Shown: positions 19,447 to 41,863 of the stretch, in pieces | Layout: every line of letters starts with the position of its first letter | Position numbering within the stretch: position 1 is the first letter of the stretch | Assembly: GCA_964565715.1 (NCBI GenBank) | Contig: CAZMGG010000003.1 | Location: forward strand, 64,368 to 107,595 | Direction: 5' to 3' | DNA length: 43,228 nucleotides | From: an uncultured candidatus Brocadiaceae bacterium | GTDB taxonomy: Bacteria > Planctomycetota > UBA1135 > UBA2386 | Made by a program: the position numbers and the translations under genes | The notes under the pieces: generated by a model | Told to the model about the DNA's origin: nothing | Seen by the model: only the letters and a program-made list of their open reading frames with translations | Database searches by the model: none

Positions 19447-19568
19447 TGGTGCGGGCGCACGTTGCTACACGAAGCGCGTGGATTCCCTGGATTTCCCGGG
19501 CATCATGGCAAGGCCTTTGTGCGTCCCCACGGACCAGCACTTGCTCGCTTGCAGGGTCACGGAGCGCC

Positions 19569-20506: not shown

Positions 20507-20733
20507 GCGGCAGCCGGCGTCGCCGATTGGCTGCGTGGCTGTGCAGGCCGGTCGGACCCGTAGCCGAGTGGCGGCGGGGCGTCCGACACGACCGTGCCAC
20601 CCGCCACGGACCGGAGCAGTGGCTGTTCCGGGTCTACGGTCTACGCGGGTGGCGAACTCAGGCCGGCATGAAGGTCGCCCAACCGCAACCCGGGCGACCG
20701 GAAGGCAGAGTTGCCAGCATGTGAGGTTGCACA

Positions 20734-21423
20734 ATGGATGATGTCGGGGTGCATCGGAGAGGAGTCCTGGAGCACACGGTGACGGAGCCAGGCGTGTCGA
20801 TCCGGATCCGTGCCGTGATGTGGGTATTTCTCTTCGGTTTCGCTGCTGCACTGGCGGTCATGCTGAACGCGGGGTTTCTGCTCATCATCCGCGTCGTCTC
20901 GTTGCTCCTGGTGTGGGCATGTCTGCCGTTCCTGTTGCGGCGGTGTGGGATATGGGCACTCCGAGCGTCCCTCGCGGTGGTGGTCGCATGGGGCGGGACC
21001 GGCTGCCTCCTGCACCTGACGACGGTGGCGTACAAGGACCTCAATTGGTCGCAACGGGAGGCCTGGGAGCAGACGTGGGTGGGGGCGAGTAATCGGCCGA
21101 CGTGGGTGGTGGCAGGATGGTCGATATGGGGTGTGGAGGGTCGAGACCCGGTAACCGATGCGTGGTACAGAGGCTCGATTGTCGTCGAGGGAGGATCGCG
21201 TTACCGGGACCCGTGTTGGGGGCTCTACGGCGACAAGGGCGTCGTTGCGTACGTCGCCAACTGGACCATCCTGTGGCTGATGGTCATGGTCGCGCTGGCA
21301 GTCGTTGGGCGATGGCGGGCGCCCGGGCGCGTGTCACTGGTCCGTCCCTGGTGCATCGCGTCGGCCTTGTGGGCCTTGGGCACTCATCTCGAGTTCGAGT
21401 GGTTCCGCGAGTACGGCTGGTGA
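20734..21423 (+). CDS. Four-TM membrane protein B, a paralogue of A; an alternative start is Met at 20818
   Basis: Same architecture as A, with conserved central motifs: WVVAGWSIWGVEGRDPVTDAWY against VVAGWPVCGVEGHDDFYW, and LNWSQREAWEQTW against LSPEAQLEWDQAYL. Confidence 0.55.
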   Translation: MDDVGVHRRGVLEHTVTEPGVSIRIRAVMWVFLFGFAAALAVMLNAGFLLIIRVVSLLLVWACLPFLLRRCGIWALRASLAVVVAWGGTGCLLHLTTVAYKDLNWSQREAWEQTWVGASNRPTWVVAGWSIWGVEGRDPVTDAWYRGSIVVEGGSRYRDPCWGLYGDKGVVAYVANWTILWLMVMVALAVVGRWRAPGRVSLVRPWCIASALWALGTHLEFEWFREYGW

Positions 21424-21603: not shown

Positions 21604-22125
21604 ATGTCGCTTGCCCCCGAGATCGCCCTCGAACGCCACCGTGAGCGCCTGCTGTCGGTGATCTACCTGCGGATGGGGCCGGACCTGCGCACCCGGATGG
21701 ATCCCGAGGATGTCCTGCAGGACGTCGCCATCGAGGCCCTCAACTCCTGGCACACCCTGTCGGACCCCGAACTGGCCGGGCCGTGGCTGGTGACCCTGGC
21801 CCGACGCAAGATCGCGCGCATCCTGCGCGATCAGGTGGGGGTGGCGGCGCGGGATCCGCGGCGGGAGCACCCGATCCAGACGGACTTCCCGGTGGCGGAC
21901 CGGCGGACCGGGCCGGTGACCACCGCCGATCGGGGCGATCGCCTGCAGCTGCTGGAGGCGGCGTTGCAGCGGCTGTCCGACGATCACCGCGAGGTCGTGC
22001 TGGGGATGAAGATCGAGGGCCAGTCGGCGAAGGAGGTGGCCGACCGGATGGGGCGCAGCGAGAACGCCATCCACCTGCTGCTCGGGCGTGCGTTGAAGCG
22101 GCTGGCGGAAGAGCTGAAGCTCTGA
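21604..22125 (+). CDS. ECF sigma-70 factor
   Basis: Region 2 DPEDVLQDVAIEALNSW and region 4 LSDDHREVVLGMKIEGQSAKEVADRMGRSENAIHLLLGRALKRL. The kinase gene starts 3 nt after its stop. Confidence 0.7.
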   Translation: MSLAPEIALERHRERLLSVIYLRMGPDLRTRMDPEDVLQDVAIEALNSWHTLSDPELAGPWLVTLARRKIARILRDQVGVAARDPRREHPIQTDFPVADRRTGPVTTADRGDRLQLLEAALQRLSDDHREVVLGMKIEGQSAKEVADRMGRSENAIHLLLGRALKRLAEELKL

Positions 22126-22127
22126 GC

Positions 22128-24698
22128 ATGACCGAGGCCCGCCCCGAGGCGCCCGAGCCGGGACCGCCGGACAGCAGCGCCGACCGCCGCATGGCGGACC
22201 TGCTGGCGGACACCAGCAGTGCCGCGGAACTGCGGCGGCGGCTGCAGGGCGACGCGACGGCGGCGCCGGATCGCGAGGATCTGCTGGCGCGGGTGAACGC
22301 GCTGGAGTTCGTCGACGCGGTGGTGGGCGGCGTCGACCTGCCCGCAGCGATCGGCGGCTACCGGATCCAGGGCCTGCTGGGCCGCGGCGGCATGGGCACG
22401 GTCTACCTGGCGTTCCAGCAGCAGCTCGAGCGGATCGTCGCGCTGAAGGTGCTGTCGCCGAACTGGTCGGCGGATCCGACCATGCGCGAGCGGTTCCGGG
22501 CGGAGGCGCGCGCGACGGCGGCGCTGCACCACCGGCACATCGTGCCGATCTACGACTTCGGCGAGGCGCAGGGCAGCCTGTACTTCGCCATGGAACGGGT
22601 GGACGGACTGAGCCTCGACCGGCACATCGCCGCGGCGCGGCGGCGTGGACAGCCGCCGATGGCGCCGCTGGAGGCGGCGCGGCGCTTCGCCGGCGTGGCC
22701 GACGCGCTGGGGCTGGCCCACCGGCGGCGGATCCTGCATCGCGACATCAAGCCCGGCAACATCCTGGTGGGCCAGGACGGCACGCTGGCGTTGACCGACT
22801 TCGGGCTGGCCAAGGTGCTGGACCGGGCGTCGCTGCGGCTGACGTCGAAGTCGGGCGGCTTCCTCGGCACGCTGCACTACAGCTCGCCGGAGCAGGCGCT
22901 GGGCCGCGAGGTGGGGCCGGCCAGCGATCTGTACGGGCTCGGCGTGACGCTGTTCGAGGCGATCACCGGCGAACTGCCGCACCGGGGGCGCACGACGGAG
23001 GCGGTGCTGCGCGAGATCCTGGAGGGCGAACCGCGGCGCCTGCGGGAGTTGCTGCCGCGGCCGCCGCGGGACCTGGAACTGGTGCTCGACAAGCTGATGG
23101 CCCGGGAGCCCGGCGACCGCTACCAGGACGGCGAGGCGCTGGCGCGCGACCTGCAGCGCATCGCCGACGGCGAGCCGGTGCACATCCGGCGGCTGCCGGT
23201 GTGGGTGCGGGCCTGGCGACGGGCGCGGAAGAATCCGCTGCTGGCCGGCGCCATGGTCACCGCCGCGGTGCTGCTGCTGGCGACGCTGGGGCTGTGGAGC
23301 GGCCTGCGCCGCGAGAAGGGCCAGGGGCTGGTGTCGCGGCACCAGAACCACCTGGTGCAGATCGCCAACGACGTGAAGCGCGAGGCCGGCGATCCGGCGG
23401 GCCCGGCGGGCCTGCTGGCGTGCCTGACGGGCACCTCGCTGCCCCAGGCGACGGAGAACACGACGCTGCTGGCGGCGATCGCCGCGGCCCAGGCCGAGGT
23501 GCCCGACGACCCGGTGCCGGCGGCGTTGCGGGCGGCGTGGCGGGAGGATCCAGCGCCCGAGGTGAGCGGGCTGCTGCGGGCGGGACGCGGCTTGGCGGCG
23601 CTGCAACGGCTGCGCGCGCCGATCGAAGGCGCGCTGGCGGAGCGGACCGGCGGCGACCTGTCGGTGGAACTGCGGCTCTACCGGCTCTACCTGCTGCGGG
23701 CGGTGGCCAACCTGACCGGCGCCGTGGGCGACCTGCCGGCGGCGCGGATGGACCTGGCCCTGGCGACGTTCCTGCGGCCCGGCGCCACGTTCCCGCGGCT
23801 GCTGGGCGAGGTGCTGGACGTGGTGACGACGCGGGCGGTGGGCACGGCGCTCCTCTCGTTCGAGCAGGAACTGGGCCGACGGAGCGTCGAGGAACGGCGG
23901 GTGGCGGGGCTGCTGCTGCGGGCCGCGGCGGCGCTGCCGCAGCCGCCGGGCGCCAATCTGCTGCCGCTGCCGCTGCCCCACCCCGACCGGCACCTGCTGG
24001 CCGCCGCCGCCGAGGCGTTGCTGGCCGGCAGCGTGCTGCCGGTGACCGCTGGCGCGCCGTCGCTGGAGGCGCAGCTGCTCGGCGCCGCCATCGAAGCCTC
24101 GCGGCACGGCGGCGACCTGCTCGCCCTGCAGGGCGCGCTGCAGCGGGGCCGCGCGCTGCTGGCCGAGGTGGCGCCCGAGGCGCCGCTGCAGTGCTGGCGG
24201 CTGGTGCTGGACCTGATCGAGCAGACGCCGAGCGCCGACACGCCGATGCTGGTTGGCGCCGACGATCCGCCGGCGCTGGTGCTGGCGGCCTGGGAGCGGT
24301 TCGCCCTGCTGGGCACCGCGCGCTTCCGGGTCGCCGCCTGGCTGCCGTCGTTCGTGCGGTTCGAGCAGGAACATGGCGACCTCACCGGGCTGCCGCGGAC
24401 GGCGGCGCTGGTGCGGCGGGCGGCGGGCCAGCTCACCGAGCCGCTGGCCCAGGCGTGGGTGGATGCGGCGCCGCGGGATCCGGACGCGCTGCTCTGCCGG
24501 CTGGAGGCGCGATTGCTGCTGCGGCGTTTCCCCCAGGCGGTCGACGACGGCATGGCGGCGGTGCAGTTCGCCGCCGACCGCGCGACGGCGGCGCGGGCGG
24601 TGGCGGCGTTGTTCGCCGCCGCCACCGAGCGGGCGATGCTCGGCGAGAAGATCTACCTGCAGCGGGTCACGGCGGTGTTCGCGGAGGCCGGCACGTGA
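22128..24698 (+). CDS. Hanks-type Ser/Thr protein kinase with a TM helix and a large C-terminal, probably periplasmic, domain
   Basis: Gly loop GRGGMGTVYLA; VAIK-like IVALKV; catalytic loop HRDIKPGNIL; DFG; SPE. TM helix LLAGAMVTAAVLLLATLGLW, followed by ~470 aa A/L-rich. Confidence 0.8.
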   Translation: MTEARPEAPEPGPPDSSADRRMADLLADTSSAAELRRRLQGDATAAPDREDLLARVNALEFVDAVVGGVDLPAAIGGYRIQGLLGRGGMGTVYLAFQQQLERIVALKVLSPNWSADPTMRERFRAEARATAALHHRHIVPIYDFGEAQGSLYFAMERVDGLSLDRHIAAARRRGQPPMAPLEAARRFAGVADALGLAHRRRILHRDIKPGNILVGQDGTLALTDFGLAKVLDRASLRLTSKSGGFLGTLHYSSPEQALGREVGPASDLYGLGVTLFEAITGELPHRGRTTEAVLREILEGEPRRLRELLPRPPRDLELVLDKLMAREPGDRYQDGEALARDLQRIADGEPVHIRRLPVWVRAWRRARKNPLLAGAMVTAAVLLLATLGLWSGLRREKGQGLVSRHQNHLVQIANDVKREAGDPAGPAGLLACLTGTSLPQATENTTLLAAIAAAQAEVPDDPVPAALRAAWREDPAPEVSGLLRAGRGLAALQRLRAPIEGALAERTGGDLSVELRLYRLYLLRAVANLTGAVGDLPAARMDLALATFLRPGATFPRLLGEVLDVVTTRAVGTALLSFEQELGRRSVEERRVAGLLLRAAAALPQPPGANLLPLPLPHPDRHLLAAAAEALLAGSVLPVTAGAPSLEAQLLGAAIEASRHGGDLLALQGALQRGRALLAEVAPEAPLQCWRLVLDLIEQTPSADTPMLVGADDPPALVLAAWERFALLGTARFRVAAWLPSFVRFEQEHGDLTGLPRTAALVRRAAGQLTEPLAQAWVDAAPRDPDALLCRLEARLLLRRFPQAVDDGMAAVQFAADRATAARAVAALFAAATERAMLGEKIYLQRVTAVFAEAGT

Positions 24699-27490
24699 CG
24701 CCGCCGTGGAGCGGGCGGCGGCGCGCCTGGGCCATGGCCGTCGGCGTGCTGGTGCTGGTGGCCATCGCGTCGGTGACGGCGTGGATCCTGGTCCAGGGCG
24801 GCGGTACCGGGCGGCGCGCGGCACCGGCCTCGGCGGGCGCACCGGCCGGCGCCAGCGTCGCGCCGGTGCCGGCCCTGCCGGCGGGGCCGCTGCCGGCGCC
24901 CAGCGACGACGGCGGCGTAGCGGGCACCGTCCTGCGGCCCGATGGCCTGCCGGCCACCGGCGCCCGCGTGACCCTGCACCGCGCCCAGACGGCGTGGCCC
25001 GAGTGGCGGCGGCAGGCGCTGGAGGTCGCGGTCACCACCGCCGGCGGCCAGTTCCGCTTCCGTACCGCGCGCGGACCCGACCTGCTGCTCGAGTTCGAGC
25101 ACCCGGACTTCGCCGGCGACCTGATCGAGGCCTCGCCCCTGGTGCGTGACGTGCAGCTCCGCCTGCAGCCGGGCTTCGTCGTGTCGGGCTTCGTGGTGGC
25201 CAACCGCCGGCGCCAGTTCGGCTGCCGCGTCACGCTGGAACCGACCATGGGCGAATGGCGGCGCACGGTGGGCGTCGACACCGGCACCGACGGCGCGTTC
25301 CGCTTCGACAACGTGCCCGCCGGCAGCGTGCGCGTGGTGGCGCGGCATCCGGCGTGGCAGCCGGCGGTGCAGCCGCAGGTCACGGTGGGCGCCAGCCGCG
25401 GCCTGGAACTGCGCTTCGAACGGCCGCCGCTGTCGCTCACCGGCCGGGTCCTGGCGGGCGGCAGCCAGCGGCCCCTGGTCGGCGCCCGGGTCACGGCGCT
25501 GCCCAACGTGACCTACCGCGCCCTGTTCGAGCCGCTGGTGACGATGACCGGCGGCGACGGCCGCTTCACGTTCCAGGGCCTCGGGCCCGGCAACCTGCGC
25601 ATCGAGGTGACGCATCCGGAATGGTCGAGCGGCTCGCGTTCGGTCGCGGTCAGCGACTCGTCGGTGGAGCTGCTGTTCGAACTGCTGCCGCGGGCGGCGG
25701 TGCGCGGCCTGCTGCGCCGCGTCGATGGCGTGATCGGCGGCGCCCTCGACGGCGTCCTGCTGTCGCTGCGCTCGGCCAGCGGCGAGATGGGCCGCTGCGC
25801 GGTCGCCGTGGATGGCACCTTCGCCTTCCCCGGCACCTGGTCGCTGGGCAACGCGACGCTGGAGGCCGTCGATGGCGCCGTGGCGTTCGCGCGCACGTCG
25901 GGCGCCGACCTGCCGATCCGCATCGAGGAGGGCGGCGAGGACCTGCAGATCGACGTCACCGCGCCGTCGGTGCTGCGCGGCCGGGTGGTGGACGGCGGCG
26001 GCGCGCCGCTGCCGGGGGCGCAGCTGCTCATCTCCCAGGAACTGCTGCGCCTGCCGGCACCGGACCGGGTGGTGGCGGTGGCCCTGGCCGACGGCTGGTT
26101 CGAGGTGCGCGGCCTGGCGGCGCGCTCGATGTCACTGACCGCGTGCCATCCGGGTCGGGCGGCGCGCCGCGTCGAGGTGCAGGCGCCGGCGCCCGGCGCC
26201 ACCCTGACCGTGCCCGACGTCGTCCTGCTGCCCGGCGGCAGCATCCGCGGCGTGGTCCGTCGCGGCGAAGGGCCGCTGCCGGGGGCGCTGGTGCAGGCCA
26301 CCGGCGGCGTGGCGTCCGGCACGACGGTGGCCGGCGCCGATGGAGCCTTCCTGCTGACCGATCTGGCGCCGGGCAGCTACCGCGTGCGCGCCCGCTACTC
26401 GACCATGCCGCTGGCGTTCGCCGAGGGCGAACTGACGATCACGCCAGGGGCCGTGCTGGGGCCGGTCGAACTCCGCTTCGGCGCCGGCCGCACGGTGCGC
26501 GGCGTGGTGCTCGGGCGTGACCGCCAGCCCGTGGAGGGCGCGGCGGTCACGGCCCGCGGTCTCACCTCATCCGGTGCACCGATCGTCACCGACGCCGCCG
26601 GCGCGTTCGCGATCGAAGTGCCGCAACGCGAGGTCGAACTGCTGATCGCGACCAGCCACGGCGGCAGCCAGGTCCTGCAGCGGGTGCCGGCGGAGGTCAC
26701 CGACGTCGAGGTGACGCTGGACGTGGCGCCGACGGCGACGGTCACCGGCCGCCTGCTCACCACGGTCGGCCGGCGACCCCTGCCGGCGGTGCTGGTGCGC
26801 ATCGAGCCGATCGGTGGCGCCGGGCCCCGCGCCAGCCTGGTCCGCTGGCTGGATCTGGCCGGTGGCGCCCTGCGGCTGCCGTTCGTGCCGGCGCAACCCT
26901 GCCGGCTGATCCTGCAGGGCGAGGGCCTCCTGCCGGCGGTGTTCCCGCTCACCCTGGTGGCCGGGCAGGAACACGATCTCGGCGAGGTGCTGCTGGAACC
27001 CGGCGCCGTGCTGTTCGGCCGCGTCGTCGACGAACAGGGCGCGCCGGTGCCGGGCTGCACCGTCTTCTTCGGCCGCGAGGAGGACCTGCGCGACCACGCG
27101 CCGCCGGGCCGCACCGATCCGCAGGGCCTGTTCCGGCTCGGCGGCGTCAGCTCAGCGCTGCCGACCCTGGTGGCCGTGGCACCGGGCTTCGCGCCGCGCA
27201 CCGTCACCCTGCGCCTGCCGCAGGACGTGCTGGCGCGGGAACCGCTGCCGGTCGTGCTGTCCCGCGGCACCCGCCTCGAGGTGGCGGTGCACGACGGCAC
27301 CGCCGGCCAGATGGTCGTCCTGCAGCGGGACGGCGCGATCCTGCAGGTGGCCGAGTCGGAGGACTCGGGCGTGGCGCACTTCCCCAACCGCGCCGCCGGG
27401 GTCTACGAGGTGTTCCTGCTGGGCCGGCCCGAGACCCTGGTGCAGGTGGCGCTGGACGGCCGCGCGGAGACGCTGCGCCTCGACCTGTGA
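24695..27490 (+). CDS. Large membrane-anchored CarboxypepD_reg-like repeat protein, a paralogue-type of the 5240-7669 gene; an alternative ATG is at 24734
   Basis: GTG overlaps the kinase stop as GTGA. TM helix AMAVGVLVLVAIASVTAWIL. At least 8 repeats of G-x-V-x-x-x-x-G-x-P-x-x-G-A, for example GRVVDGGGAPLPGAQL, GVVRRGEGPLPGALV and GRVVDEQGAPVPGCTV. Confidence 0.7.
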   Translation: MTPPWSGRRRAWAMAVGVLVLVAIASVTAWILVQGGGTGRRAAPASAGAPAGASVAPVPALPAGPLPAPSDDGGVAGTVLRPDGLPATGARVTLHRAQTAWPEWRRQALEVAVTTAGGQFRFRTARGPDLLLEFEHPDFAGDLIEASPLVRDVQLRLQPGFVVSGFVVANRRRQFGCRVTLEPTMGEWRRTVGVDTGTDGAFRFDNVPAGSVRVVARHPAWQPAVQPQVTVGASRGLELRFERPPLSLTGRVLAGGSQRPLVGARVTALPNVTYRALFEPLVTMTGGDGRFTFQGLGPGNLRIEVTHPEWSSGSRSVAVSDSSVELLFELLPRAAVRGLLRRVDGVIGGALDGVLLSLRSASGEMGRCAVAVDGTFAFPGTWSLGNATLEAVDGAVAFARTSGADLPIRIEEGGEDLQIDVTAPSVLRGRVVDGGGAPLPGAQLLISQELLRLPAPDRVVAVALADGWFEVRGLAARSMSLTACHPGRAARRVEVQAPAPGATLTVPDVVLLPGGSIRGVVRRGEGPLPGALVQATGGVASGTTVAGADGAFLLTDLAPGSYRVRARYSTMPLAFAEGELTITPGAVLGPVELRFGAGRTVRGVVLGRDRQPVEGAAVTARGLTSSGAPIVTDAAGAFAIEVPQREVELLIATSHGGSQVLQRVPAEVTDVEVTLDVAPTATVTGRLLTTVGRRPLPAVLVRIEPIGGAGPRASLVRWLDLAGGALRLPFVPAQPCRLILQGEGLLPAVFPLTLVAGQEHDLGEVLLEPGAVLFGRVVDEQGAPVPGCTVFFGREEDLRDHAPPGRTDPQGLFRLGGVSSALPTLVAVAPGFAPRTVTLRLPQDVLAREPLPVVLSRGTRLEVAVHDGTAGQMVVLQRDGAILQVAESEDSGVAHFPNRAAGVYEVFLLGRPETLVQVALDGRAETLRLDL

Positions 27491-32166: not shown

Positions 32167-32282
32167 CGGTGGGGGCGGGAGCGGGACGGCGGCGGCACGG
32201 AGGGGGCATTCTGGCGATCGTGCGTCCCGGCGGAAGGGCCTGCTTCTTGCCACCGCGCCGGTGGCCGGTTCTGCTCTCGCCC

Positions 32283-33560
32283 ATGCGATTCCCCCTCGCC
32301 GCGCTCTGGCTGTTCGCCCTGCTGCCCGCCTGCGCCGCGCCCGCGCGCTTCGTGGTGCCCAGCGACGATCGCGAGGTCGCCATGCGCGACATGGTCGCCG
32401 ATCTCGCCCGGAACGACGTCGTCGTGCTCGGCGAGACCCACGACAACATCCACGGCCATCGGGCCCACCTGGCGATCGTGCAGGCGCTGCACGCCGAACG
32501 GCCGCGCCTGGCGATCGCGATGGAGATGTTCGAGCGCGACGTGCAGTCGGTGCTCTACCAGTACCTGCTGGGCGACATCGAGGAGGCCGAGTTCCTGCGC
32601 GACAGCCGGCCGTGGCCGAACTACCAGACCGACTACCGGCCGCTGGTGGAGTGGGCGAAGCAGAACGGCGTGCCGGTGATCGCCGCCAACGTGCCGCGGC
32701 GCCTGGCCAGCAAGGTGGCGAAGGAAGGGCTCGCGGCGGTCGCGGGTGACCCGCTGACGGCGCGCGAGGTGTCGGCCCCCGAGGACCTCTACTGGGAGGC
32801 GTTCAAGGCCGAGATGGGTTCGCACATGGGCGCCGGCGGCGACGCGACGCGCCGCTTCTACGAGGCGCAGTGCCTCAAGGACGACACCATGGCCGAGTCG
32901 ATCGCCGACTTCCTGAAGGACGAGCGGCGGCAGGGCCGCGACACCCTGGTGGTGCACCTGTGCGGTCGCTTCCACTCCGACCACCGGCGCGGCACCGTCG
33001 CCCGGGTGCAGTCGCGTCTGCCGGAAGCGCGCATCGCCGTGCTGACGGTGGACGAGGTGCCCGAGTCGCACGAAGGCCGCTTCACGGTGAAGCCCGGCGT
33101 GGCGGACTACGTGGTGGTGGTGCCGCCGATGCCGAAGAAGGAGACGCCGGCGCGGCCGGCGCCGCCGGTGGCCGGCAAGCCCGTCAATCCGCACGAGCCG
33201 CGGACCGGCGCCACGCCGGCCAACCCACACGAGCCGAAGCCCGCGACGACCGCGAAGGCGACCGAGCCGCAGCGCGAGCCGCCGCCGCCGGGCGCCCGTC
33301 CGGCGCTCGGCCTGATGCCCGACTACGGCGCCGAGGGCGGCATGCGGGTCGGCGGCGTCACCGAAGGCGGGCCGGCCTGGGTCGGCGGCGTCAAGGAGGG
33401 CGACGTGATCGTCAAGGTCGCCGGCCTGCCGGTCACCGACATCACCACCTACAGCCAGGCGCTGGAGACGGTGAAGGTCGGCGAGCTGATCGAGATCGTG
33501 GTGAAGCGCGGCGCCGAGAACCACACCTTGAAGGTCGAGGTCGGCGTCCGCACGCGCTGA
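32283..33560 (+). CDS. ChaN-like (DUF399 / haem-binding uptake, Tiki-TraB superfamily) lipoprotein with a C-terminal PDZ domain
   Basis: Signal/lipobox MRFPLAALWLFALLPACAAP. ChaN-like VVLGETHDN and HxxR motifs. A Pro-rich linker. PDZ-like GVTEGGPAWVGGVKEGDVIVKVAG. Confidence 0.6.
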   Translation: MRFPLAALWLFALLPACAAPARFVVPSDDREVAMRDMVADLARNDVVVLGETHDNIHGHRAHLAIVQALHAERPRLAIAMEMFERDVQSVLYQYLLGDIEEAEFLRDSRPWPNYQTDYRPLVEWAKQNGVPVIAANVPRRLASKVAKEGLAAVAGDPLTAREVSAPEDLYWEAFKAEMGSHMGAGGDATRRFYEAQCLKDDTMAESIADFLKDERRQGRDTLVVHLCGRFHSDHRRGTVARVQSRLPEARIAVLTVDEVPESHEGRFTVKPGVADYVVVVPPMPKKETPARPAPPVAGKPVNPHEPRTGATPANPHEPKPATTAKATEPQREPPPPGARPALGLMPDYGAEGGMRVGGVTEGGPAWVGGVKEGDVIVKVAGLPVTDITTYSQALETVKVGELIEIVVKRGAENHTLKVEVGVRTR

Positions 33561-33584
33561 ACGCCGCCATCGCCGCCGTTCAGC
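33556..33584. terminator. Bidirectional terminator-like hairpin between convergent genes
   Basis: GCTGAACG-N13-CGTTCAGC, an 8-bp perfect stem, overlapping both stop codons. Confidence 0.5.
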
Positions 33585-36567
33585 CGCGCAGGGCGGCCTG
33601 GAAGTCGGCGGGCAGCAGCAGGCCGTCGGCGGCCACCGTCGGCGCCACGTGCTCGGCCTGCAGCACGAGCCGCAGCTGCGTCGCGGCATCGCGGCCGGCC
33701 GCCAGCAGGCAGAGGCCGGTCCACCAGCACCGGCTGCCGAACGCGCGCAGGCTCGGGCCGGCCTCCGCGGGGTCGAGGGCGCGGAGTTGCGCCGCGTAGT
33801 CGCCCAACGCCCGGTGCAGGTCGTCCAGCGGCGCTGACGGATCGGTGGTGCGGTCGTGGTCGAGCGCCCGGCGCACGGCGGCGGCGAGCTGCTCGCCCGC
33901 GGCCAGCAGCGCGGCCGGCAGCACCCGCGATGCCTCGGTGAGTTCCACCACCGCCGCGACCCGGTCGGCAGTGATCGCTGTGACATCGCGGTACCGGCCG
34001 AGCCGTTGCGCCACCAGGGCCGCGCCCCGGGCCTCGTCGCCGCCGGCGAAGGCGGCGTTGGCGAACAGGCCGGCGCCGACCACCAGCACCGCGGCGCCGG
34101 CGATGGCGAGGACCCGGCGCCGGCGGGCCCGGCCCCGACGGGCCAGCTCCTCCTGCTGGCGCCGTTCCAGTTCCCGCTCCGCGGCGGCGGCCACCTTGCG
34201 CCAGTGTTCCGCCAGCCGGAGCTGCCGGCCGGCGGGCTCCGCCGAGGCCACGCCCGGCCCGGCCAGCGCCTCCAGCGTCTCGCGGGCGATGCGCAATCGC
34301 ACCGCCGGATCGTCGGTGGCGTCGAGGTCGGTCTCGGCGCGGGCGGCGAGTTCCTGGGCCAGCATCGTCTCGACGTCGCGGAGGTCGTTGCCGTACAGCT
34401 CGCCGCGCTCCTGCTGCACCAGCGGCAGCAGGAATTGCAACAGGTCGCGCCGCTCGCGCAGCGCCCGCAACCGCTGGTCGGCGCCGCTGTGCGGGTCGTC
34501 GGCCAACTCGGCGTAGATCCGCGCCAGCTCCTGGTTGCGGCGGACGGCCTGTTCGATCTCCTGCTTGCGGCGGCGCGCCTCGTCGAGCCGCTGCCGCAGC
34601 CGCCGCGCCTCCGGCGTCTCGCCCTCGCCGTCGGCCGCCTCCTCGGTCAGGTGGTCGATGGCGCGTTCCATGTCGAACAGGCCGGTGGTCCAGTGGCCCC
34701 GGGCCAGGGCCTGCTCGGCGCCGCGCGCCAGGCGGTCGCGGGTGGAGCGGGCCTGGTCGAGCTGCATGCGCAGGGTCTCGATCCGGTCGAGGAGCTGGCT
34801 GCGCGGCCGTTCCGGCCGGTCCACCAGGGACTCCAGCATGCGCAGCGCGTCGAGCCGGTGCAGCGCGGTCTGCAACGGCCGCACCGGCACCGGCTCGGCG
34901 GCGAGCTTGTCCTGGGCCTCGGCCAGCAGGTCCCAGGCGCCGTCGGTGGTGCGCAGCAGGGCCTCGTCGAGCTGCCGGCGACACGGCTCGAGCCGGTCGG
35001 CCAGCGCCGGGTACTCGGTGGCGAGGTCGTGTAGGGCGAGGCCGAGCCCGCGCAGGCCCATCCCGCCGGGCTGGTCGGCGGCGGTGCCGCCGCTGAGCCG
35101 CCGGCCGCCGCACTCGCGCACGAACGACGCCACCGCGTCGAGCGGCGGCGCGGCGCCGGCCAGGAACATCTCGCGCAGTCGTTCGAGCCCGGGGCCGGCG
35201 CGGCCGATGCGCTCGACGTAGAACGCCAGGCGGTGCAGCCGGTCGCGGCAGCGCGTGACCACGGCGGCGGTGCCGCCGTAGGCGCCGGCGATGGCCTCCA
35301 GGGCCCGTTCCGCCGCAGCGAGGTCCAGTCCGGCCTCGGCCGCGGTCATCGCCGCCAGCAGCTCGTCGTGCTCGGCGTTGGCGGTGCGGATCTCGTCGTG
35401 CAGGCGCTGCAGCACCAGGCCCGGCTGGCGCTGCAGCGACGAGGGCATGCGGGGATTGCCGCGGTCGGGCAGCAGCAGCGGGCCAGGCGCCGCCAGGGCA
35501 CTGGTCAGCATGCCGGTGGCGCTGCCGATCAGCGCATGGGCCTCGCCGAACGCCCCCTGCCGGCGCAGTTCCGCCACCCGTTCGGGCAGCGTGGTCAGGA
35601 TCGTCGCCGCCGACGTCCGCGCCGTCTGCCGCAACTGCAGCGCCGGCCCGTGGCACGGGAAGCGGCGCAGGATCACCGCCGCCACCTGCAGCGCGCGTTC
35701 GACACCATTCGGGGTGGCGGTGACCTCGGGCAGCGCCTGCAGGGGCCACCGTTGCTGCTGCGCCAGCCGTCGCCGGGCCAGGGCCAGCAGCGCCTCGCGC
35801 CGTGGGCTGGCGGGCAGGGCCGCGCCGTGGCGGGCGGCCTCGGCCAGGTCGCCGCGCTGGATCTCGGCCAGCAGCGCCTCGGCCGGGTCCCGCTCGAGCC
35901 GCGCGCCGATGTCCCGCAGCGCGGCGGCCACCACCGCGGCCGCCGGGCGCCGCGCCACCAGCGGCGCACGACACGCATCCACCAACTCGCCCAACGCCGG
36001 GTCGTGACCCTGCAGCCGGCCGCGGGGATCACCGCACAGGGCGAGGTGCAGCGCCTGGCCGAGGCCGAGCACGTCCGCCGCCGCGTCGCCTGGCCCCCGG
36101 CTCGGGTGGGCGTGCTCCAGGTCGAGGAGCCGGATCTGGTCGCCATCGCACAGCAGGTTGGCGGGGCGCACGTCGCCGTGGACCACGCCGTGGGGCAGTT
36201 CCTCGGTGCGCAGCCCGTGCATCGCCGCGAGCGTGCCGGCGAGGCTGGCGAACAGGCGGCAGGCGCGGGCCGGTGGCAGGGCGCCCCGTTCCGCCAGCAG
36301 CGCCGACAGGTCCCGGCCGGGATGCAGATCCATCCGCACGCAGGGCCGGCCGGTCACCGGGTCGTGGCCGCTGCCGCGGTAGCGCACCACCGGCAGGTGG
36401 GCGAGCCGCTGCCCCATCTGGCACTCCCGGGCGGCGTCCTCCAGCGAACCCCGCGCGAAGATCTTCACCAACTCCACCTCGCCTCCGCCGGGCTCGCGGG
36501 TCCGCACCAGGGTCCGGTCGGGCGAGCAGTGCACCAACTGGTCCTGGGGCGCGGTCGGATCGGCCAT
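33580..36567 (-). CDS. Large protein with a divergent N-terminal protein-kinase-like domain (possible pseudokinase), a long coiled-coil, a TM segment and a C-terminal domain
   Basis: The kinase-like catalytic loop is VHGDVRPANLL; DLE replaces DFG; the Gly loop is not canonical. The Glu/Arg-rich coiled-coil covers ~residues 560-760. TM helix VLAIAGAAVLVVGAGLFANAAFAG. Confidence 0.6.
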   Translation of the reverse strand: MADPTAPQDQLVHCSPDRTLVRTREPGGGEVELVKIFARGSLEDAARECQMGQRLAHLPVVRYRGSGHDPVTGRPCVRMDLHPGRDLSALLAERGALPPARACRLFASLAGTLAAMHGLRTEELPHGVVHGDVRPANLLCDGDQIRLLDLEHAHPSRGPGDAAADVLGLGQALHLALCGDPRGRLQGHDPALGELVDACRAPLVARRPAAAVVAAALRDIGARLERDPAEALLAEIQRGDLAEAARHGAALPASPRREALLALARRRLAQQQRWPLQALPEVTATPNGVERALQVAAVILRRFPCHGPALQLRQTARTSAATILTTLPERVAELRRQGAFGEAHALIGSATGMLTSALAAPGPLLLPDRGNPRMPSSLQRQPGLVLQRLHDEIRTANAEHDELLAAMTAAEAGLDLAAAERALEAIAGAYGGTAAVVTRCRDRLHRLAFYVERIGRAGPGLERLREMFLAGAAPPLDAVASFVRECGGRRLSGGTAADQPGGMGLRGLGLALHDLATEYPALADRLEPCRRQLDEALLRTTDGAWDLLAEAQDKLAAEPVPVRPLQTALHRLDALRMLESLVDRPERPRSQLLDRIETLRMQLDQARSTRDRLARGAEQALARGHWTTGLFDMERAIDHLTEEAADGEGETPEARRLRQRLDEARRRKQEIEQAVRRNQELARIYAELADDPHSGADQRLRALRERRDLLQFLLPLVQQERGELYGNDLRDVETMLAQELAARAETDLDATDDPAVRLRIARETLEALAGPGVASAEPAGRQLRLAEHWRKVAAAAERELERRQQEELARRGRARRRRVLAIAGAAVLVVGAGLFANAAFAGGDEARGAALVAQRLGRYRDVTAITADRVAAVVELTEASRVLPAALLAAGEQLAAAVRRALDHDRTTDPSAPLDDLHRALGDYAAQLRALDPAEAGPSLRAFGSRCWWTGLCLLAAGRDAATQLRLVLQAEHVAPTVAADGLLLPADFQAALRG

Positions 36568-36716
36568 GGCAAGGGGGGTGGGAAGGGTCGCCGGGGGTGC
36601 GGCCGGCGAGGGTGCGGAAGTGTAACACGTTGCCCCGCATGGCCGTGCGTCATCCGACGGCTTTCCGACGGCGGCCCTACCCGGTTCGCCTGATGCAGGC
36701 GAGAATCCGACACCCT

Positions 36717-38597
<1,881 letters not shown>

Positions 38598-38602
38598 AGC
38601 CG

Positions 38603-38619
38603 CGGGCACGCCGGTTGCC
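38603..38619 (+). promoter_or_regulatory. Putative sigma54 (-24/-12) promoter directly upstream of the catalase gene
   Basis: cGGGCACGccggTTGCc matches TGGCACG-N4-TTGCW, with GG and GC spaced exactly 10 nt apart. It lies in the 36-nt gap between the bEBP stop at 38597 and the catalase ORF at 38634. Confidence 0.55.
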
Positions 38620-38633
38620 TGCGCCCCGCGACC

Positions 38634-41009
38634 ATGCCGCGCCGCAAGCCCAGCAAGCCCAGCAAGCCATCGCCCAGCCCGAAGACCAGCACCCGGAAGT
38701 CCGGCCGATCGGCGAAGCCGAAGGCCAAACAGGCGGGCCGGACTCCGAAGGCGAGGCAGCAGGAGGCGGTGGACGCCCTGGCGGCGTCCATGCCGCACAA
38801 TGCCGCGAAGCCGGGTGAGTTCGGCCGGCTGTCCCGTCGGCCCCCGGCCGGAGCGTTGGTGGCCGCCGGTGATGCTGCCGCCACGGCCAGCACGCTGTCC
38901 GAGGGGAGGGGCACTGCCAAGACCGGCGACTCCCTCGATCGCGTGCGCACCGATGCCACGGGACAACGCCTCACCACCAACCAGGGCGTGCCCATCGCCG
39001 ACAACCAGAACTCGTTGAAGGCGGGTCTGCGCGGGCCGACCCTGCTCGAGGACTTCATCCTGCGGGAGAAGATCACCCACTTCGATCACGAGCGCATCCC
39101 CGAACGCATCGTCCATGCCCGTGGCTCCGGCGCCCACGGCTACTTCGAGTGCTACCGGCCGCTCACCGAGCTGACCCGCGCCTCGCTGTTCGCCGCGGCC
39201 CGCAAGCGGACGCCGGTGTTCGTGCGCTTCTCCACCGTGGCCGGCGAGCGCGGCTCCACCGACACCGCTCGCGACGTGCGCGGCTTCGCCGTGAAGTTCT
39301 ACACCGACGAGGGCAACTGGGATCTGGTGGGCAACAACATCCCGGTCTTCTTCATCCAGGATGCGATGAAGTTCCCCGATCTGGTGCACGCGCTGAAGCC
39401 GGAGCCGCACCACGGCATGCCACAGGCTGCGTCGGCGCACGACACCTTCTGGGACTTCGTGTCGCTGATGCCCGAGTCGACCCACATGCTGCTGTGGCTC
39501 ATGTCCGACCGCGCCATCCCGCGCAGCTACCGGATGATGCAGGGCTTCGGCGTGCACACCTTCCGCTTCGTGAACGCGGAGGGCCGCGCCCGCTTCGTCA
39601 AGTTCCACTGGCTGCCGGCGGCGGGCACGCACTCGCTGGTGTGGGACGAGGCCGTTCGCATCTCGGGCGCCGATCCGGACTTCCATCGCCGAGACCTGTG
39701 GGAGGCCATCGAGGCCGGGGCCGGGCCGGAGTGGGAGCTGGCGATCCAGGTGTTCGACGAGGCGCAGGCCGAGGCGTTCAGCTTCGACGTGCTGGACCCG
39801 ACCAAGCTGGTGCCCGAGGAACTGGTGCCGCTGCAGCTGGTCGGCCGGATGATCCTGGATCGCAACCCCGACAACTTCTTCGCCGAGACCGAACAGGTGG
39901 CGTTCTGCACGGCGCACGTGGTGCCGGGCATCGACTTCAGCAACGATCCGCTGCTGGCCGGCCGCATCCACTCCTACGTCGACACCCAGATCTCACGGCT
40001 CGGCGGCGCCAACTTCCACGAGATCCCGATCAACGCGCCGCTGGCGCCGGTGCACAACAACCAGCGCGACGGCATGCACCGGCAGGCGATACCGCGCGGC
40101 CGTGTGGCCTACGAGCCGAACTCGCTCGGCGGCGGTGCGCCGTTCCAGGCCGGCCCGGCGGGATTCCAGTCGTTCGCCGAGCCGGTGGCGGAGGACAAGG
40201 TGCGGGGCAAGCCGGAGCGCTTCGCCGAACACTACCTGCAGGCCACCCTGTTCTACGAGAGCCAGAGCGACGTCGAGAAGCGGCACATCGCCGCGGCCTT
40301 CCGTTTCGAGCTGAGCAAGGTACAGGTGCCGGCGATCCGCGAGCGCATGGTGGCCGGTCTGTGCAACGTCAGCGAGGACCTGGCGCGCGCCGTGGCCGAC
40401 GGCCTCGGGTTCGGCGAACTGCCGAAGCCGCTTCCCAGGGTCCTGGCGCGGTCGCCCCGCCCCGAGATCACCCATTCGCCGGCCCTGTCGCTGCTGGCGC
40501 GACCCGGCAGCACCGGCATCGCCACACGCCGCATCGCCATCCTGGTCGCCGACGGGACCGATGGCCAGGCCGCCGCCGGGCTGCGCCAGCGGCTGCAGGA
40601 TGCCGACGCCGAGCCGCGCTGCGTCGGTGTCCGGCTCGGTCGCGTCAAGAACGGCACCGGCCGGATGCCGCTGCCGGTGGACGACACCCTGGAGACCGCG
40701 CCCTCGGTGACCTGGGACGCCATGGTCGTGCCCGGCGGCGCGGCCGCTGTCCGCGCCCTGGCGCAGAGCGCCCAGGCGCTCGACTTCCTCGCCGAACAGT
40801 ACCGTCACTGCAAGACGATCCTGCTGCTCGACGAGGCCGAGGCCCTGCTGGAGGCGGCGGGGATCCCGCGCTCCCTGCCGTCGGGCGCCGAGGACCCTGG
40901 CCTGCTGCTGGGTCAGGGCGGTGGCATCGGTCGCTGGTTCAAGGCCTTCGCCGCCGCGGTGGCGGCGCACCGCCACTTCGAACGCGAGACCGACCCGCCG
41001 CTCGTGTGA
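38634..41009 (+). CDS. katE: Large-subunit (HPII-type) monofunctional catalase with a C-terminal DJ-1/PfpI-like domain; the true start may be downstream, for example Met at 38790
   Basis: Catalase core motifs RERIPERVVHA-like ([19 protein letters not shown]), FDHERIPER, and the haem-proximal RLFSYxDT-like [12 protein letters not shown]. About 200 aa of C-terminal flavodoxin-like extension. The N-terminal 50 aa are Lys/Pro-rich. Confidence 0.85.
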
Positions 41010-41010: not shown

Positions 41011-41781
41011 TCAGCGGATCACGCGGTCCATCACCGTCATCAGCAGGAAACCCAGCACCAGGCCCCAGGTCGCCACCCGCTCGCGGCCCCGCACGTGTGA
41101 CTCCGGGATCACCTCCTGCCCCACCACGTACAGCATCGCGCCGCCGGCGAACGCCATCGCCACCGCCACCGTCTCGATGCCGCCGCTGCCGACCACGATG
41201 CCGAGCAGACCCCCGCCCAGCTCGACCAGCCCCGTGCCTGCGGCCACCAGGAAGCTCCGCCATCGGCCGAGACCGACGGCGGCCATGGACGCGGCCGCCA
41301 CCAGGCCCTCGGGCAGGTTCTGCAGCACGATCCCGGCGGTGATGGCGTAGCCGGTGGCGACATCGGGCCCACTGAAGCCGATCCCCACCGCCAGGCCTTC
41401 CGGCAGGTTGTGCAGCGCGATCGCCAGCACGAACAGCCACGCGCCGCGCACGAACCTCGAACCCGGCCCATCGTGGCCCTTGATGAAGTGCTCGTGCGGC
41501 AGCGTCCGATCGGCCACCCACAGCACGAGGGCACCGGCCAGCACCCCGGTGGCGACCAGCAACGAAGCCGTGGCGTCGGTGCGGTGGGCCAGCAGTTCGT
41601 AGCCGCCGCCGAGCAGCGTGAAGGCCGACGCCGCCAGCATCACGCCGGCACCGAAGCCGAGCAACGCCGAGTTCACGCGGGGTGGCAGCCGCGGCACCAC
41701 CAACACGGGCAGCGCGCCCAGCGCCGTGGCCAGCCCCGCCACCACGCTGGCCACGATGGCCTGCTCGGTGCGGGGATCCAT
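41011..41781 (-). CDS. zupT: ZIP-family metal (zinc) transporter
   Basis: Two HNLPEGL-type motifs (ALHNLPEGLAVG, VLQNLPEGLVAA) and about 8 TM helices. Start taken at the MDPRTEQAIV Met. Confidence 0.75.
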   Translation of the reverse strand: MDPRTEQAIVASVVAGLATALGALPVLVVPRLPPRVNSALLGFGAGVMLAASAFTLLGGGYELLAHRTDATASLLVATGVLAGALVLWVADRTLPHEHFIKGHDGPGSRFVRGAWLFVLAIALHNLPEGLAVGIGFSGPDVATGYAITAGIVLQNLPEGLVAAASMAAVGLGRWRSFLVAAGTGLVELGGGLLGIVVGSGGIETVAVAMAFAGGAMLYVVGQEVIPESHVRGRERVATWGLVLGFLLMTVMDRVIR

Positions 41782-41863
41782 GGGCTTCAGGCCGCCTGCT
41801 GACGGGACGACATCGGCGCAGCGGACCACGGCAGCGTTGCCGGCGCAAGCCTGTCCCCGCCGG

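What the first reader, a model, noticed from the sequence alone, without database searches (positions are those of the whole stretch)
38598..38640. Near-consensus sigma54 promoter between an FHA-containing bEBP and an HPII catalase
cGGGCACGccggTTGCc fits TGGCACG-N4-TTGCW exactly in spacing. It sits in the 36-nt gap after the activator's stop and before the catalase ORF. This implies that catalase expression depends on sigma54 and on the adjacent FHA-GAF-AAA+ activator. The activator is in turn divergently paired with a kinase-like protein, so a phospho-Thr-sensing route to oxidative-stress defence would be unusual regulation for katE. If transcription starts ~12 nt past the GC, the annotated ATG at 38634 would be almost leaderless, which argues for a downstream true start.
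Basis: partly seen in the sequence, partly recalled or inferred. Interest (0 to 1): 0.65.

Follow-up and report, generated by a model that had tools for sequence, protein, structure and literature searches.

The report
Likely sigma-54 promoter before a catalase
A short DNA motif between a regulator gene and a catalase gene in an uncultured planctomycete looks like a real but oddly placed sigma-54 promoter; relatives of this catalase in other bacteria often carry the same promoter type, so it is a plausible, fairly ordinary regulatory site and remains unproven.

Summary
The motif is real. GGGCACGccggTTGCc lies at 38604-38619, with GG at 38605-6 and GC at 38617-8. It sits in the 36-nt gap between the activator's stop (38595-7) and the catalase ATG (38634). 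Window-wide the core is not beyond chance (0.28 expected), but a hit in this one spacer is unlikely (about 7e-5).

New support: in 84 loci with related catalases, canonical TGGCAY-N5-TTGC lies upstream and co-oriented 8 times against 0.3 expected. Burkholderia pseudomallei katE is reported to need RpoN2. Sigma-54 control of this catalase clade is therefore plausible and not unprecedented.

- The ATG at 38634 is the true start. The N-terminus MPxRKPSKPS is conserved and GC3 is 0.92. The promoter would therefore give a roughly 4-nt leader.
- About 35 orthologous kinase/activator pairs have no catalase and no sigma-54 site downstream, and no upstream activator-binding site (UAS) was found. The link to this activator is inferred only.
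- The activator's N-terminus has an FHA fold, but Pfam misses it and the canonical phosphothreonine-binding residues are not conserved.

Verdict: probably a functional sigma-54 promoter (about 0.55), activator unresolved. It is a new member of a known kind, of modest interest.

The parts
38604..38619 (+). Candidate sigma-54 promoter element GGGCACGCCGGTTGCC (-24 GG at 38605-6, -12 GC at 38617-8)
   Evidence: It matches the consensus at 14 of 16 positions with an exact core, and it is unique in the window.
38630..38633 (+). Predicted transcription start (about 38630-38631) and the resulting leader of about 4 nt (gacc)
   Evidence: Inferred from the usual 11-12 nt between the -12 C and +1 (established knowledge) applied. 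Not measured.
38634..41009 (+). Large-subunit (HPII-like) catalase, 791 aa
   Evidence: Pfam Catalase E=5e-181, plus Catalase-rel and Catalase_C. NCBIfam HPII 1013.6 bits against a 1102 cut-off. The identical protein is on record as a 791-aa product (P0001).
38634..38789 (+). Basic Pro/Lys/Ser-rich N-terminal extension of the catalase (codons 1-52), which fixes the start codon
   Evidence: It aligns with M[AP]xRK...SARSTVSGP...NAAKPSEFG in homologues. GC3 is 0.923.
36717..38597 (+). Sigma-54 activator (bEBP), 626 aa: FHA-fold + GAF + AAA+ + HTH_8
   Evidence: The start MPV... is conserved in 31 orthologues.
36717..37016 (+). N-terminal domain (about residues 1-100) with an FHA fold but degenerate pThr-binding residues
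   Evidence: AF2 pLDDT 85.8 with 11 strands. The top 50 Foldseek PDB hits are all FHA domains. There is no Pfam or PDB sequence hit.
37146..37553 (+). GAF domain (residues 144-279)
   Evidence: Pfam GAF E=1e-11.
37632..38126 (+). Sigma-54 interaction AAA+ domain (residues 306-470), including GAFTGA at 37851-37868
   Evidence: Pfam Sigma54_activat E=1.6e-70. GAFTGA located. Orthologues carry GAFTGA or GSFTGA.
38457..38570 (+). Fis-type HTH_8 DNA-binding domain (residues 581-618)
   Evidence: Pfam HTH_8. The recognition helix is nearly identical in all orthologues.
33580..36567 (-). Divergent kinase-like protein, 995 aa
   Evidence: Marginal Pkinase hit at residues 43-154. The sequence shows a G-rich loop, HGDVRPAN and DLE motifs and a hydrophobic stretch that reads as a likely transmembrane segment, untested. 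It is syntenic with the bEBP in about 30 genomes.
36655..36711 (+). Two copies of a conserved motif (CGACGGCTTTCCGAC at 36655-36669, AGGCGAGAATCCGAC at 36697-36711) just upstream of the bEBP start. It is a possible regulator-binding site or 5'-UTR element; any relation to the promoter is unknown.
   Evidence: two or more copies at about -51 and -10 in 24 of 30 orthologous loci.

Best explanation
The 16-mer at 38604-38619 is a genuine sigma-54 (-24/-12) promoter for the catalase gene. RNA polymerase with sigma-54 would bind it as a closed complex. An AAA+ enhancer-binding protein would use ATP hydrolysis to open it, and transcription would start at about 38630.

Because the catalase really starts at ATG 38634, the transcript would have a leader of only about 4 nt. 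It would have to be translated in a leaderless-like, Shine-Dalgarno-independent way.

The simplest candidate activator is the bEBP encoded immediately upstream, whose signal input comes through its FHA-fold and GAF domains and possibly the divergently encoded kinase-like protein.

Shown: the motif, its placement, the gene identities, the true start codon, and the recurrence of sigma-54 promoters in this catalase clade. Inferred: that the site is used, where transcription starts, which bEBP acts on it, and what signal it senses. The confidence of 0.55 refers to 'functional sigma-54 promoter for the catalase'. I put the further claim that the adjacent bEBP is the activator at about 0.3 overall.
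For: 1. The core GGCACG-N4-TTGC is exact and unique in the window. It sits in a 36-nt, 83% GC spacer, co-oriented with and directly upstream of a gene and directly after a bEBP gene. The chance of an exact core in this spacer is about 7e-5 (arithmetic).
2. In 84 loci with homologues of this catalase, TGGCAY-N5-TTGC occurs 8 times on the catalase strand upstream against 0.3 expected; no shuffle of 200 reached 8 and the maximum was 3. It occurs once on the other strand and never downstream. The hits fall in about 5 lineages.
3. In L083, L121 and L165 the site TGGCATG(C/G)GCGTTGCA is a conserved island in an otherwise diverged spacer. It is paired with a conserved reverse-oriented GGGCAYG...TCTTGCA site, which shows that G at -26 is tolerated.
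4. L084 carries GGGCATACCGGTTGCT in an 83-nt spacer before its catalase, nearly the same 16-mer as the window.
5. Precedent: B. pseudomallei katE has an RpoN box and is not expressed in an rpoN2 mutant (PMC4745423).
6. The bEBP has an intact GAFTGA loop, conserved as GAFTGA or GSFTGA in orthologues. Sigma-54 regulons are described in Planctomycetota (PMC12316311).
7. There is no terminator, sigma-70-like site, stable RNA structure or Rfam hit that would give the spacer another role.
8. Planctomycetes use few Shine-Dalgarno sequences, and leaderless or S1-dependent initiation has been proposed for them (PMC5397173).
Against: 1. The -12 GC is only 16 nt from the ATG, leaving a leader of about 4 nt. 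In the other catalase loci the same distance is about 35-59 nt by the measure. The start cannot be moved downstream.
2. Window-wide the motif is within chance, and it does not stand out with a background-corrected PWM.
3. Most catalase homologues (about 85-90%) have no such site. At a loose threshold of two mismatches or fewer, the zone around the catalase start shows no strand bias: 12 forward against 10 reverse.
4. No close relative of this genome is available, so the site itself has no phylogenetic footprint. The best bEBP orthologue is 73% identical, and P0001 is alone in its cluster.
5. The bEBP-catalase adjacency is unique to this genome among about 35 orthologous loci, and none of those has a sigma-54 site after the bEBP.
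6. No UAS was found. The only motif-like hit upstream (38504-38518) is explained by the conserved GNLT codons of the HTH.
7. Presence of rpoN in this genome could not be checked.
Confidence: 0.55

Rival explanations
1. Chance match. The spacer happens to contain a GC-rich string that fits the sigma-54 consensus. The catalase is then transcribed by read-through from the bEBP gene (36-nt gap, same strand, no terminator) or from an unrecognised housekeeping-type promoter inside the 3' end of the bEBP gene.
For: Exact-core matches are expected 0.28 times per 43 kb, and one-mismatch matches are at the chance level. The PWM score is unexceptional against the 72% GC background. The site was picked out by a reader looking for exactly this pattern, which is a selection effect. 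A 4-nt leader is atypical for sigma-54 promoters. No terminator lies between the genes. The adjacency is not conserved. Most homologous catalases lack such a site.
Against: The probability of an exact core in this specific 36-nt spacer on the right strand is about 7e-5. The spacer is 83% GC, yet it supplies the A at -22 and the TT at -15/-14 exactly where they are needed. The same catalase clade repeatedly carries canonical sigma-54 promoters elsewhere. A near-identical 16-mer precedes the catalase in L084.
Confidence: 0.33
2. The promoter is real but is served by a different bEBP. (This is a variant nested inside the best explanation.) The adjacent FHA-fold/GAF bEBP would then have a conserved regulon elsewhere, and it lies next to the catalase only through a lineage-specific rearrangement.
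For: The kinase/bEBP pair is conserved in about 35 genomes without a catalase or a sigma-54 site next to it. Its HTH recognition helix is nearly invariant, which implies a conserved target sequence. No such sequence was found upstream of the promoter. The other sigma-54-linked catalase loci examined with wide flanks have no bEBP nearby: L083 and L084 within 4 kb, L165 within 8 kb.
Against: bEBPs often sit next to their targets (established knowledge; examples are atoC-atoDAEB and norR-norVW). The promoter begins 7 nt after this bEBP's stop codon. UAS sites may lie inside the bEBP coding region, where I could not recognise them.
Confidence: 0.22
3. It is a sigma-54 holoenzyme binding site without productive catalase transcription. 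Examples would be a stable closed complex that modulates read-through from the bEBP gene, or a decayed relic of a promoter whose leader was lost when the genes were brought together.
For: The 4-nt leader is hard to reconcile with efficient translation. Many non-productive or intragenic sigma-54 sites are known from Salmonella and E. coli ChIP studies (my own knowledge, not checked here). Leaders in related loci are much longer.
Against: There is no direct evidence for this. The site keeps an exact core, which a decaying relic in an 83% GC spacer would tend to lose.
Confidence: 0.1

Closest known systems
Burkholderia pseudomallei katE under RpoN2 (PMC4745423)
   Same: It is a KatE-type catalase with a predicted RpoN box in front of the gene, and katE mRNA and activity are lost in an rpoN2 mutant.
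   Different: No activator was identified there, and no adjacent bEBP is reported. It is a proteobacterium. I could not fetch that locus to compare the promoter sequence, the leader length or the catalase subclade.
Classical bEBP-adjacent sigma-54 promoters (for example E. coli atoC -> atoDAEB, norR/norVW, pspF/pspA); from my own knowledge
   Same: The activator gene lies next to its -24/-12 target promoter. The activator has the AAA+ GAFTGA domain and a C-terminal Fis-type HTH.
   Different: Those promoters have mapped UAS sites and leaders of tens of nucleotides. Here no UAS was found, the leader would be about 4 nt, and the adjacency is not conserved in orthologues.
Myxococcus xanthus FHA-domain bEBPs coupled to Ser/Thr kinases (Jelsbak et al. 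2005); from my own knowledge, not read here
   Same: An N-terminal FHA-type domain sits on a sigma-54 activator, and a eukaryote-like kinase is encoded nearby.
   Different: Here the FHA is recognisable only by fold. The canonical pThr-binding residues are not conserved. A GAF domain is inserted between the FHA and AAA+ domains. The kinase is atypical, with a marginal Pkinase score, HGD for HRD and DLE for DFG.
E. coli katE (HPII) and the Salmonella yciGFE-katN operon, both sigma-S dependent; from my own knowledge
   Same: It is a large-subunit catalase. In several of the related loci the catalase is paired with a YciE/YciF-like (weak DUF892) ferritin-like protein.
   Different: Those are driven by sigma-S (a sigma-70 family factor) and need no ATP-dependent activator. 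Here, and in about 5 other lineages, the promoter motif is of the sigma-54 type.

Membership tests
Sigma-54 (-24/-12) promoter | GG and GC dinucleotides separated by 10 nt | tested here: met
   GG is at 38605-6 and GC at 38617-8.
Sigma-54 (-24/-12) promoter | Match to the extended consensus TGGCACG-N4-TTGCW | tested here: met
   14 of 16 positions match and the core is exact. The deviations are G at -26 and C at -11. G at -26 also occurs in the conserved reverse sites of L083, L121 and L165.
Sigma-54 (-24/-12) promoter | More than chance would give | tested here: inconclusive
   Window-wide, 0.28 exact cores are expected and 23 of 100 shuffles have one or more. For this spacer the probability is about 7e-5 (derived). 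A rough PWM did not single it out.
Sigma-54 (-24/-12) promoter | Upstream of and co-oriented with a gene, with a leader that allows translation | tested here: inconclusive
   It is co-oriented and lies 16 nt (GC to ATG) before the confirmed start, so the leader is about 4 nt. Related loci have 35-59 nt.
Sigma-54 (-24/-12) promoter | Conserved in related sequences | tested here: inconclusive
   No close relative of this locus exists in the collections. The class of site is enriched upstream of homologous catalases, 8 against 0.3 expected.
Sigma-54 (-24/-12) promoter | Enhancer (UAS) for a bEBP within about 200 bp | tested here: inconclusive
   No convincing repeat was found. The one motif-like hit at 38504 is explained by codons.
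Sigma-54 (-24/-12) promoter | Transcription start about 12 nt after the GC, dependent on rpoN and a bEBP | not testable with these tools
   This needs 5'-end mapping and genetics or in vitro transcription.
Bacterial enhancer-binding protein (NtrC-type sigma-54 activator) | AAA+ Sigma54_activat domain with the GAFTGA loop and a C-terminal HTH | tested here: met
   PF00158 E=1.6e-70 and HTH_8. GAFTGA is at residues 379-384. The best NCBIfam hits are all sigma-54 activators, and none reaches an equivalog cut-off.
FHA domain (phosphothreonine-binding) | 11-stranded beta-sandwich FHA fold | tested here: met
   The AF2 model has pLDDT 85.8 and 11 strands. The top 50 Foldseek PDB hits are all FHA domains, with probability 1.0 and TM up to 0.8.
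FHA domain (phosphothreonine-binding) | Recognised by the Pfam FHA model or by sequence profile | tested here: not met
   There is no FHA hit even at E<=10 for 17 family members, none in a PDB profile search, and hhalign to a GarA-like FHA sequence finds nothing.
FHA domain (phosphothreonine-binding) | Conserved Gly-Arg (beta3/4), Ser-x-x-His (beta4/5) and Asn (beta6/7) that bind pThr | tested here: not met
   Mapping onto the model's strands gives G26-S27 (G-G in most orthologues), [S/F/H/V]42-G-R-[L/V]45, and no Asn in 61-67 (EPGLPFP). The mapping uses strand order, not a structural superposition, so it is an inference.
Large-subunit (HPII, clade 2) catalase | Catalase core plus Catalase-rel and a flavodoxin/DJ-1-like C-terminal domain | tested here: met
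   Pfam hits to all three. The NCBIfam HPII model gives 1013.6 bits over residues 79-786, just below the 1102 equivalog cut-off.
Hanks-type Ser/Thr protein kinase | Full Pkinase domain with the catalytic HRD and DFG motifs and an activation segment | tested here: inconclusive
   Only the N-lobe and catalytic loop match (residues 43-154, 33.4 bits against 31.7). The sequence has HGDVRPAN and DLE and only a very short segment before the alpha-F-like helix.

The most novel reading that the evidence does not exclude
A clade of long-N-terminal HPII-type catalases, spread across several phyla, may be habitually under sigma-54 control rather than sigma-S or OxyR control. These catalases are often paired with YciE/F-like ferritin-like or CBS-domain stress proteins. 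In this planctomycete the module may have been captured by a lineage-specific signalling pair, an atypical membrane kinase plus an FHA-fold/GAF bEBP. It would yield an almost leaderless sigma-54 transcript, which would be a rare combination of an ATP-gated promoter with leaderless translation.
Probability: 0.25. Interest if true: 0.55.

Novelty: new member of a known kind. Interest (0 to 1): 0.4.

Why it matters
If the site is used, catalase in this organism is switched on by an ATP-dependent activator rather than by the usual OxyR, PerR or sigma-S routes. Peroxide defence would then be tied to whatever the FHA-fold/GAF activator senses.

The more general result is comparative. Canonical sigma-54 promoters recur upstream of this catalase clade in unrelated environmental bacteria. 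That extends a single report from Burkholderia and suggests an under-appreciated member of sigma-54 regulons.

The 4-nt leader would also be a test case for leaderless-type translation from a sigma-54 promoter in a phylum that rarely uses Shine-Dalgarno sequences.

None of this changes a major concept. It is a testable regulatory prediction in an uncultured lineage.

Tried and rejected
Rejected. The N-terminus is conserved across homologues, GC3 is 0.92, and there are no alternative in-frame starts. Some database homologues are called from the equivalent Met (P0044), but most have Phe there.
- **Conserved synteny of bEBP and catalase.** Absent in about 35 orthologous loci.
- **A conserved sigma-54 site near the orthologous kinase/bEBP pairs.** None in intergenic DNA. 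The recurrent hit at +1201 to +1219 lies inside the bEBP coding sequence. A recurrent AGGCATCGTGGTTGCC recurs identically downstream of the bEBP in three loci. I read it as the reverse complement of conserved GNHD codons in a metallophosphoesterase-like gene; that reading was not tested.
- **UAS search.** Repeats in 36400-38660 gave only low-complexity GC matches. The tandem motif upstream of the bEBP start is not found upstream of the promoter, except for a codon-driven look-alike.
- **Another role for the spacer.** No terminator or sigma-70-like site, no unusual RNA fold (z = 0.62), and no Rfam family.
- **Loose-threshold survey of sigma-54-like sites around catalase starts** (two mismatches or fewer). 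No strand bias, so uninformative. Only the strict consensus over the full upstream flank showed enrichment.
- **Home-made PWM.** It was approximated from memory and penalises G/C matches heavily in a 72% GC background, so I did not rely on it.
- **Sequence-based FHA detection** (Pfam, PDB profile, hhalign). All negative. Only fold prediction resolved the question.
- **Looking up the window's own contig by the catalase protein.** Not on record.
- **Wider context of other catalase homologues.** No bEBP neighbours.
Full report
**What is there.** The window is 72% GC DNA. Its nearest relatives are uncultured Planctomycetota MAGs. The bEBP gene ends with TAA at 38595-38597 and the catalase ORF begins with ATG at 38634, leaving a 36-nt spacer that is 83% GC. 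Inside the spacer, GGGCACGCCGGTTGCC occupies 38604-38619. GG is at 38605-6 and GC at 38617-8, which is the canonical sigma-54 -24/-12 spacing. Fourteen of 16 positions match TGGCACG-N4-TTGCW.

**Is it more than chance?** The core GGCACG-N4-TTGC is unique in the window, but 0.28 such matches are expected by chance on both strands and 23 of 100 shuffles have at least one. With one mismatch allowed, 7 are observed against 8.0 expected. A rough PWM written from memory and scored against the GC-rich background did not rank the site highly. In about 312 kb of related Planctomycetota loci the exact core occurs 3 times. On its own the motif is unremarkable. Its placement is not: the per-position rate, times the 23 possible positions in the spacer, gives about 7e-5 for an exact core on the right strand directly after a bEBP gene. 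This figure ignores the selection effect of a reader who was searching for such coincidences.

**The flanking genes.**
- The upstream gene (36717-38597, 626 aa) has GAF, Sigma54_activat, AAA_lid and HTH_8 domains. GAFTGA lies at residues 379-384, and orthologues carry GAFTGA or GSFTGA. Its start, MPV..., is conserved in 31 orthologues.
- The downstream gene (38634-41009, 791 aa) is a large-subunit catalase. It scores just under the NCBIfam HPII equivalog cut-off.
- The divergent gene (33580-36567, minus strand) encodes a 995-aa protein with a marginal Pkinase match restricted to the N-lobe and catalytic loop. The sequence shows a Gly-rich loop, HGDVRPAN, DLE in place of DFG, and a late hydrophobic stretch that looks like a membrane-spanning segment; none of these was tested.

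**The FHA claim.** Pfam finds no FHA in the first 187 residues even at E<=1. It finds none in 17 family members at E<=10, and a profile search of PDB sequences also finds none. An AlphaFold2 model of residues 1-120, built with 10 homologues, is confident (pLDDT 85.8) and has 11 beta strands. The 50 best Foldseek matches in the PDB are all FHA domains. The fold is therefore FHA. I mapped the canonical residues by strand order. The beta3/4 Gly-Arg becomes G26-S27 (G-G in most orthologues). The beta4/5 Ser-x-x-His becomes [S/F/H/V]-G-R-[L/V]. The beta6/7 loop (EPGLPFP) has no Asn. A phosphothreonine-reading function is thus not supported by the sequence, although several invariant arginines leave some phospho-ligand binding open.

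**The start codon.** The evidence says otherwise:
- The first residues, [12 protein letters not shown], align with MPARKPSKPS, MA(A/T)RK... and MPKKRPS in homologues from other phyla.
- The whole basic extension down to NAAKPGEFG is a family trait.
- GC3 of the first 52 codons is 0.923, identical to the rest of the gene.
- The 12 in-frame spacer codons contain no ATG, GTG or TTG.

With the -12 C at 38618, the start would be at about 38630. This rests on the established 11-12 nt rule and is not measured. The leader would then be about 4 nt. That is the main functional oddity. Planctomycetes are reported to use few Shine-Dalgarno sequences and to rely on leaderless or S1-type initiation (PMC5397173), so it is not impossible.

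**Is the arrangement conserved?** A genome-collection scan with the bEBP returned about 35 orthologues (59-75% identity), nearly all labelled Planctomycetota. The divergent kinase-like gene is present wherever the flank is long enough, but the catalase is absent from every one of these loci. The sequences after the bEBP stop show no -24/-12 motif and usually lead into a different gene. A scan of 21 full-flank loci found no conserved intergenic sigma-54 site. Synteny with the window is limited to the kinase/bEBP pair. The conserved job of this bEBP is therefore not control of an adjacent catalase; the juxtaposition is specific to this lineage. The HTH recognition helix is almost invariant, so a conserved binding sequence is expected, but I could not identify it upstream of the promoter. 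The one look-alike, at 38504, is produced by the conserved GNLT codons.

**The catalase clade and sigma-54.** This analysis changed my assessment. The closest catalase homologues (about 70% identity) come from many phyla. I collected 84 loci with their upstream DNA.
- A loose motif definition in the zone around the catalase start showed no strand bias.
- The strict consensus TGGCAY-N5-TTGC is found 8 times on the catalase strand upstream of the gene, against 0.3 expected. None of 200 dinucleotide shuffles reached 8; the maximum was 3. It is found once on the opposite strand and never downstream.
- The 8 hits fall in about 5 lineages:
  - L083/L121, directly upstream of the catalase.
  - L097/L137, promoter, then a weak DUF892 (YciE/F-like) protein, then the catalase.
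  - L141/L122, promoter, then two small ORFs, then the catalase.
  - L093, promoter, then a CBS-domain protein, then the catalase.
  - L152.
- In L083, L121 and a third contig, L165, the site is an island of identity in a diverged spacer. It is accompanied by a conserved, oppositely oriented GGGCAYG-N4-CTTGCA site facing a divergent DUF892-like gene.
- L084 has GGGCATACCGGTTGCT in an 83-nt spacer before its catalase, almost the window's 16-mer.
- In the literature, B. pseudomallei katE has a predicted RpoN box and is not expressed in an rpoN2 mutant (PMC4745423). A broad sigma-54 regulon survey that includes Planctomycetota does not mention catalase (PMC12316311).

Sigma-54 control of KatE-type catalases therefore has a precedent and appears recurrent in this clade. 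It is not universal: roughly 85-90% of the loci lack a site.

**Other roles for the spacer.** I found no intrinsic terminator or sigma-70-like site in 38000-39000. There is no unusual RNA structure (z = 0.62) and no Rfam match.

**Weighing.**
- For a functional promoter: the exact core in a tiny spacer next to a bEBP gene, the clade-wide enrichment, the near-identical site in L084, and the Burkholderia precedent.
- Against: the 4-nt leader (other loci have 35-59 nt by the measure), no footprint for this particular site because no close relative exists, non-conserved adjacency, no UAS, and rpoN unverified.

I put a functional sigma-54 promoter for the catalase at about 0.55, a chance match with read-through or another promoter at about 0.33, and non-productive binding or a relic at about 0.1. 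Given a functional promoter, the adjacent bEBP is the activator in perhaps half the cases, or about 0.3 overall.

**Novelty and interest.** Every component is of a known kind: a -24/-12 promoter, an NtrC-type activator, an HPII-like catalase, and an FHA-fold input domain next to a kinase. RpoN-dependent katE has been reported. I file the finding as a new member of a known kind. The points of some interest are the recurrent sigma-54/catalase/DUF892 association across lineages, the near-leaderless geometry, and the conserved kinase plus degenerate-FHA/GAF bEBP pair with an unknown regulon. Interest: 0.4.

Noticed in passing
L083:3934-3949, L121:1434-1449, L165:7933-7948, L097:290-305, L137:198-213, L141:413-428, L122:478-493, L093:361-376, L152:893-908: Canonical sigma-54 promoters (TGGCAY-N5-TTGC) lie upstream of and co-oriented with homologues of this catalase in about 5 unrelated lineages. 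This is 8 against 0.3 expected, counted over L081-L164; L165 was fetched afterwards and is not in that count. They often sit in front of a weak-DUF892 (YciE/F-like) or CBS-domain gene that precedes the catalase. L083, L121 and L165 also have a conserved back-to-back reverse site.
   Followed up: partly
window 36655-36669 and 36697-36711; same positions (about -51 and -10 from the ATG) in L001-L045: Two copies of a conserved motif (CGACGG-WWWW-CCGAC and GGCGA-NAAT-CCGAC) lie about 40 nt apart, immediately upstream of the bEBP start codon, in 24 of 30 orthologous loci. Further upstream is a conserved GGTGGTG...TA(C/G)CAGA block. This could be an autoregulatory site or a 5'-UTR element. It was not found near the catalase promoter.
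   Followed up: partly
L003, L004, L006, L012, L017-L020, L025-L027, L038-L040, L045: about 30-100 nt after the bEBP stop: In many orthologous loci the DNA after the bEBP stop carries a conserved GATACTCG ... CGCTA(G/C)C(C/T)TGC ... CCCTTG block. It precedes a gene whose product starts ...TLTVVGDVH (metallophosphoesterase-like, untested). This gene and the block are absent from the window.
   Followed up: no
window 38634-38789 and alignment A1: The catalase clade has a conserved basic, Pro/Lys/Ser-rich N-terminal extension (M[AP]xRK ... SARSTVSGP ... NAAKPSEFG) that E. coli HPII lacks. Its function is unknown, and some database entries are called from the internal Met instead.
   Followed up: partly
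window about 17800-21400: A lower-GC island (58-68% against 72%) with positive GC skew and weak codon-position signal. It holds a weak ECF-like sigma-factor ORF (18060-18683) and a protein with a phage tail collar domain (18973-19446). There are no RNA family hits.
   Followed up: partly
window 32169-33560 (+) and 41011-41829 (-): The module is flanked by metal- and haem-related genes. One is a ChaN-type haem-binding (Cofac_haem_bdg) + PDZ protein just beyond the kinase-like gene. The other is a ZupT/ZIP zinc transporter convergent with the catalase, with one base between the two stop codons.
   Followed up: no
window 21783-24698 (+) and 24686-27490 (+): A second, canonical Ser/Thr kinase (full Pkinase domain, E=3e-41) is followed by a large protein of CarboxypepD_reg repeats. 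A similar repeat protein lies at 5228-7669.
   Followed up: no
window 38595-38636: The bEBP and catalase ORFs are in the same reading frame. They are separated by a single TAA and 12 sense codons. This is probably a coincidence in high-GC DNA, but read-through would give a fusion protein.
   Followed up: no
window 11773-11847 (-): tRNA-Thr (anticodon TGT), the only RNA gene detected in the window.
   Followed up: yes
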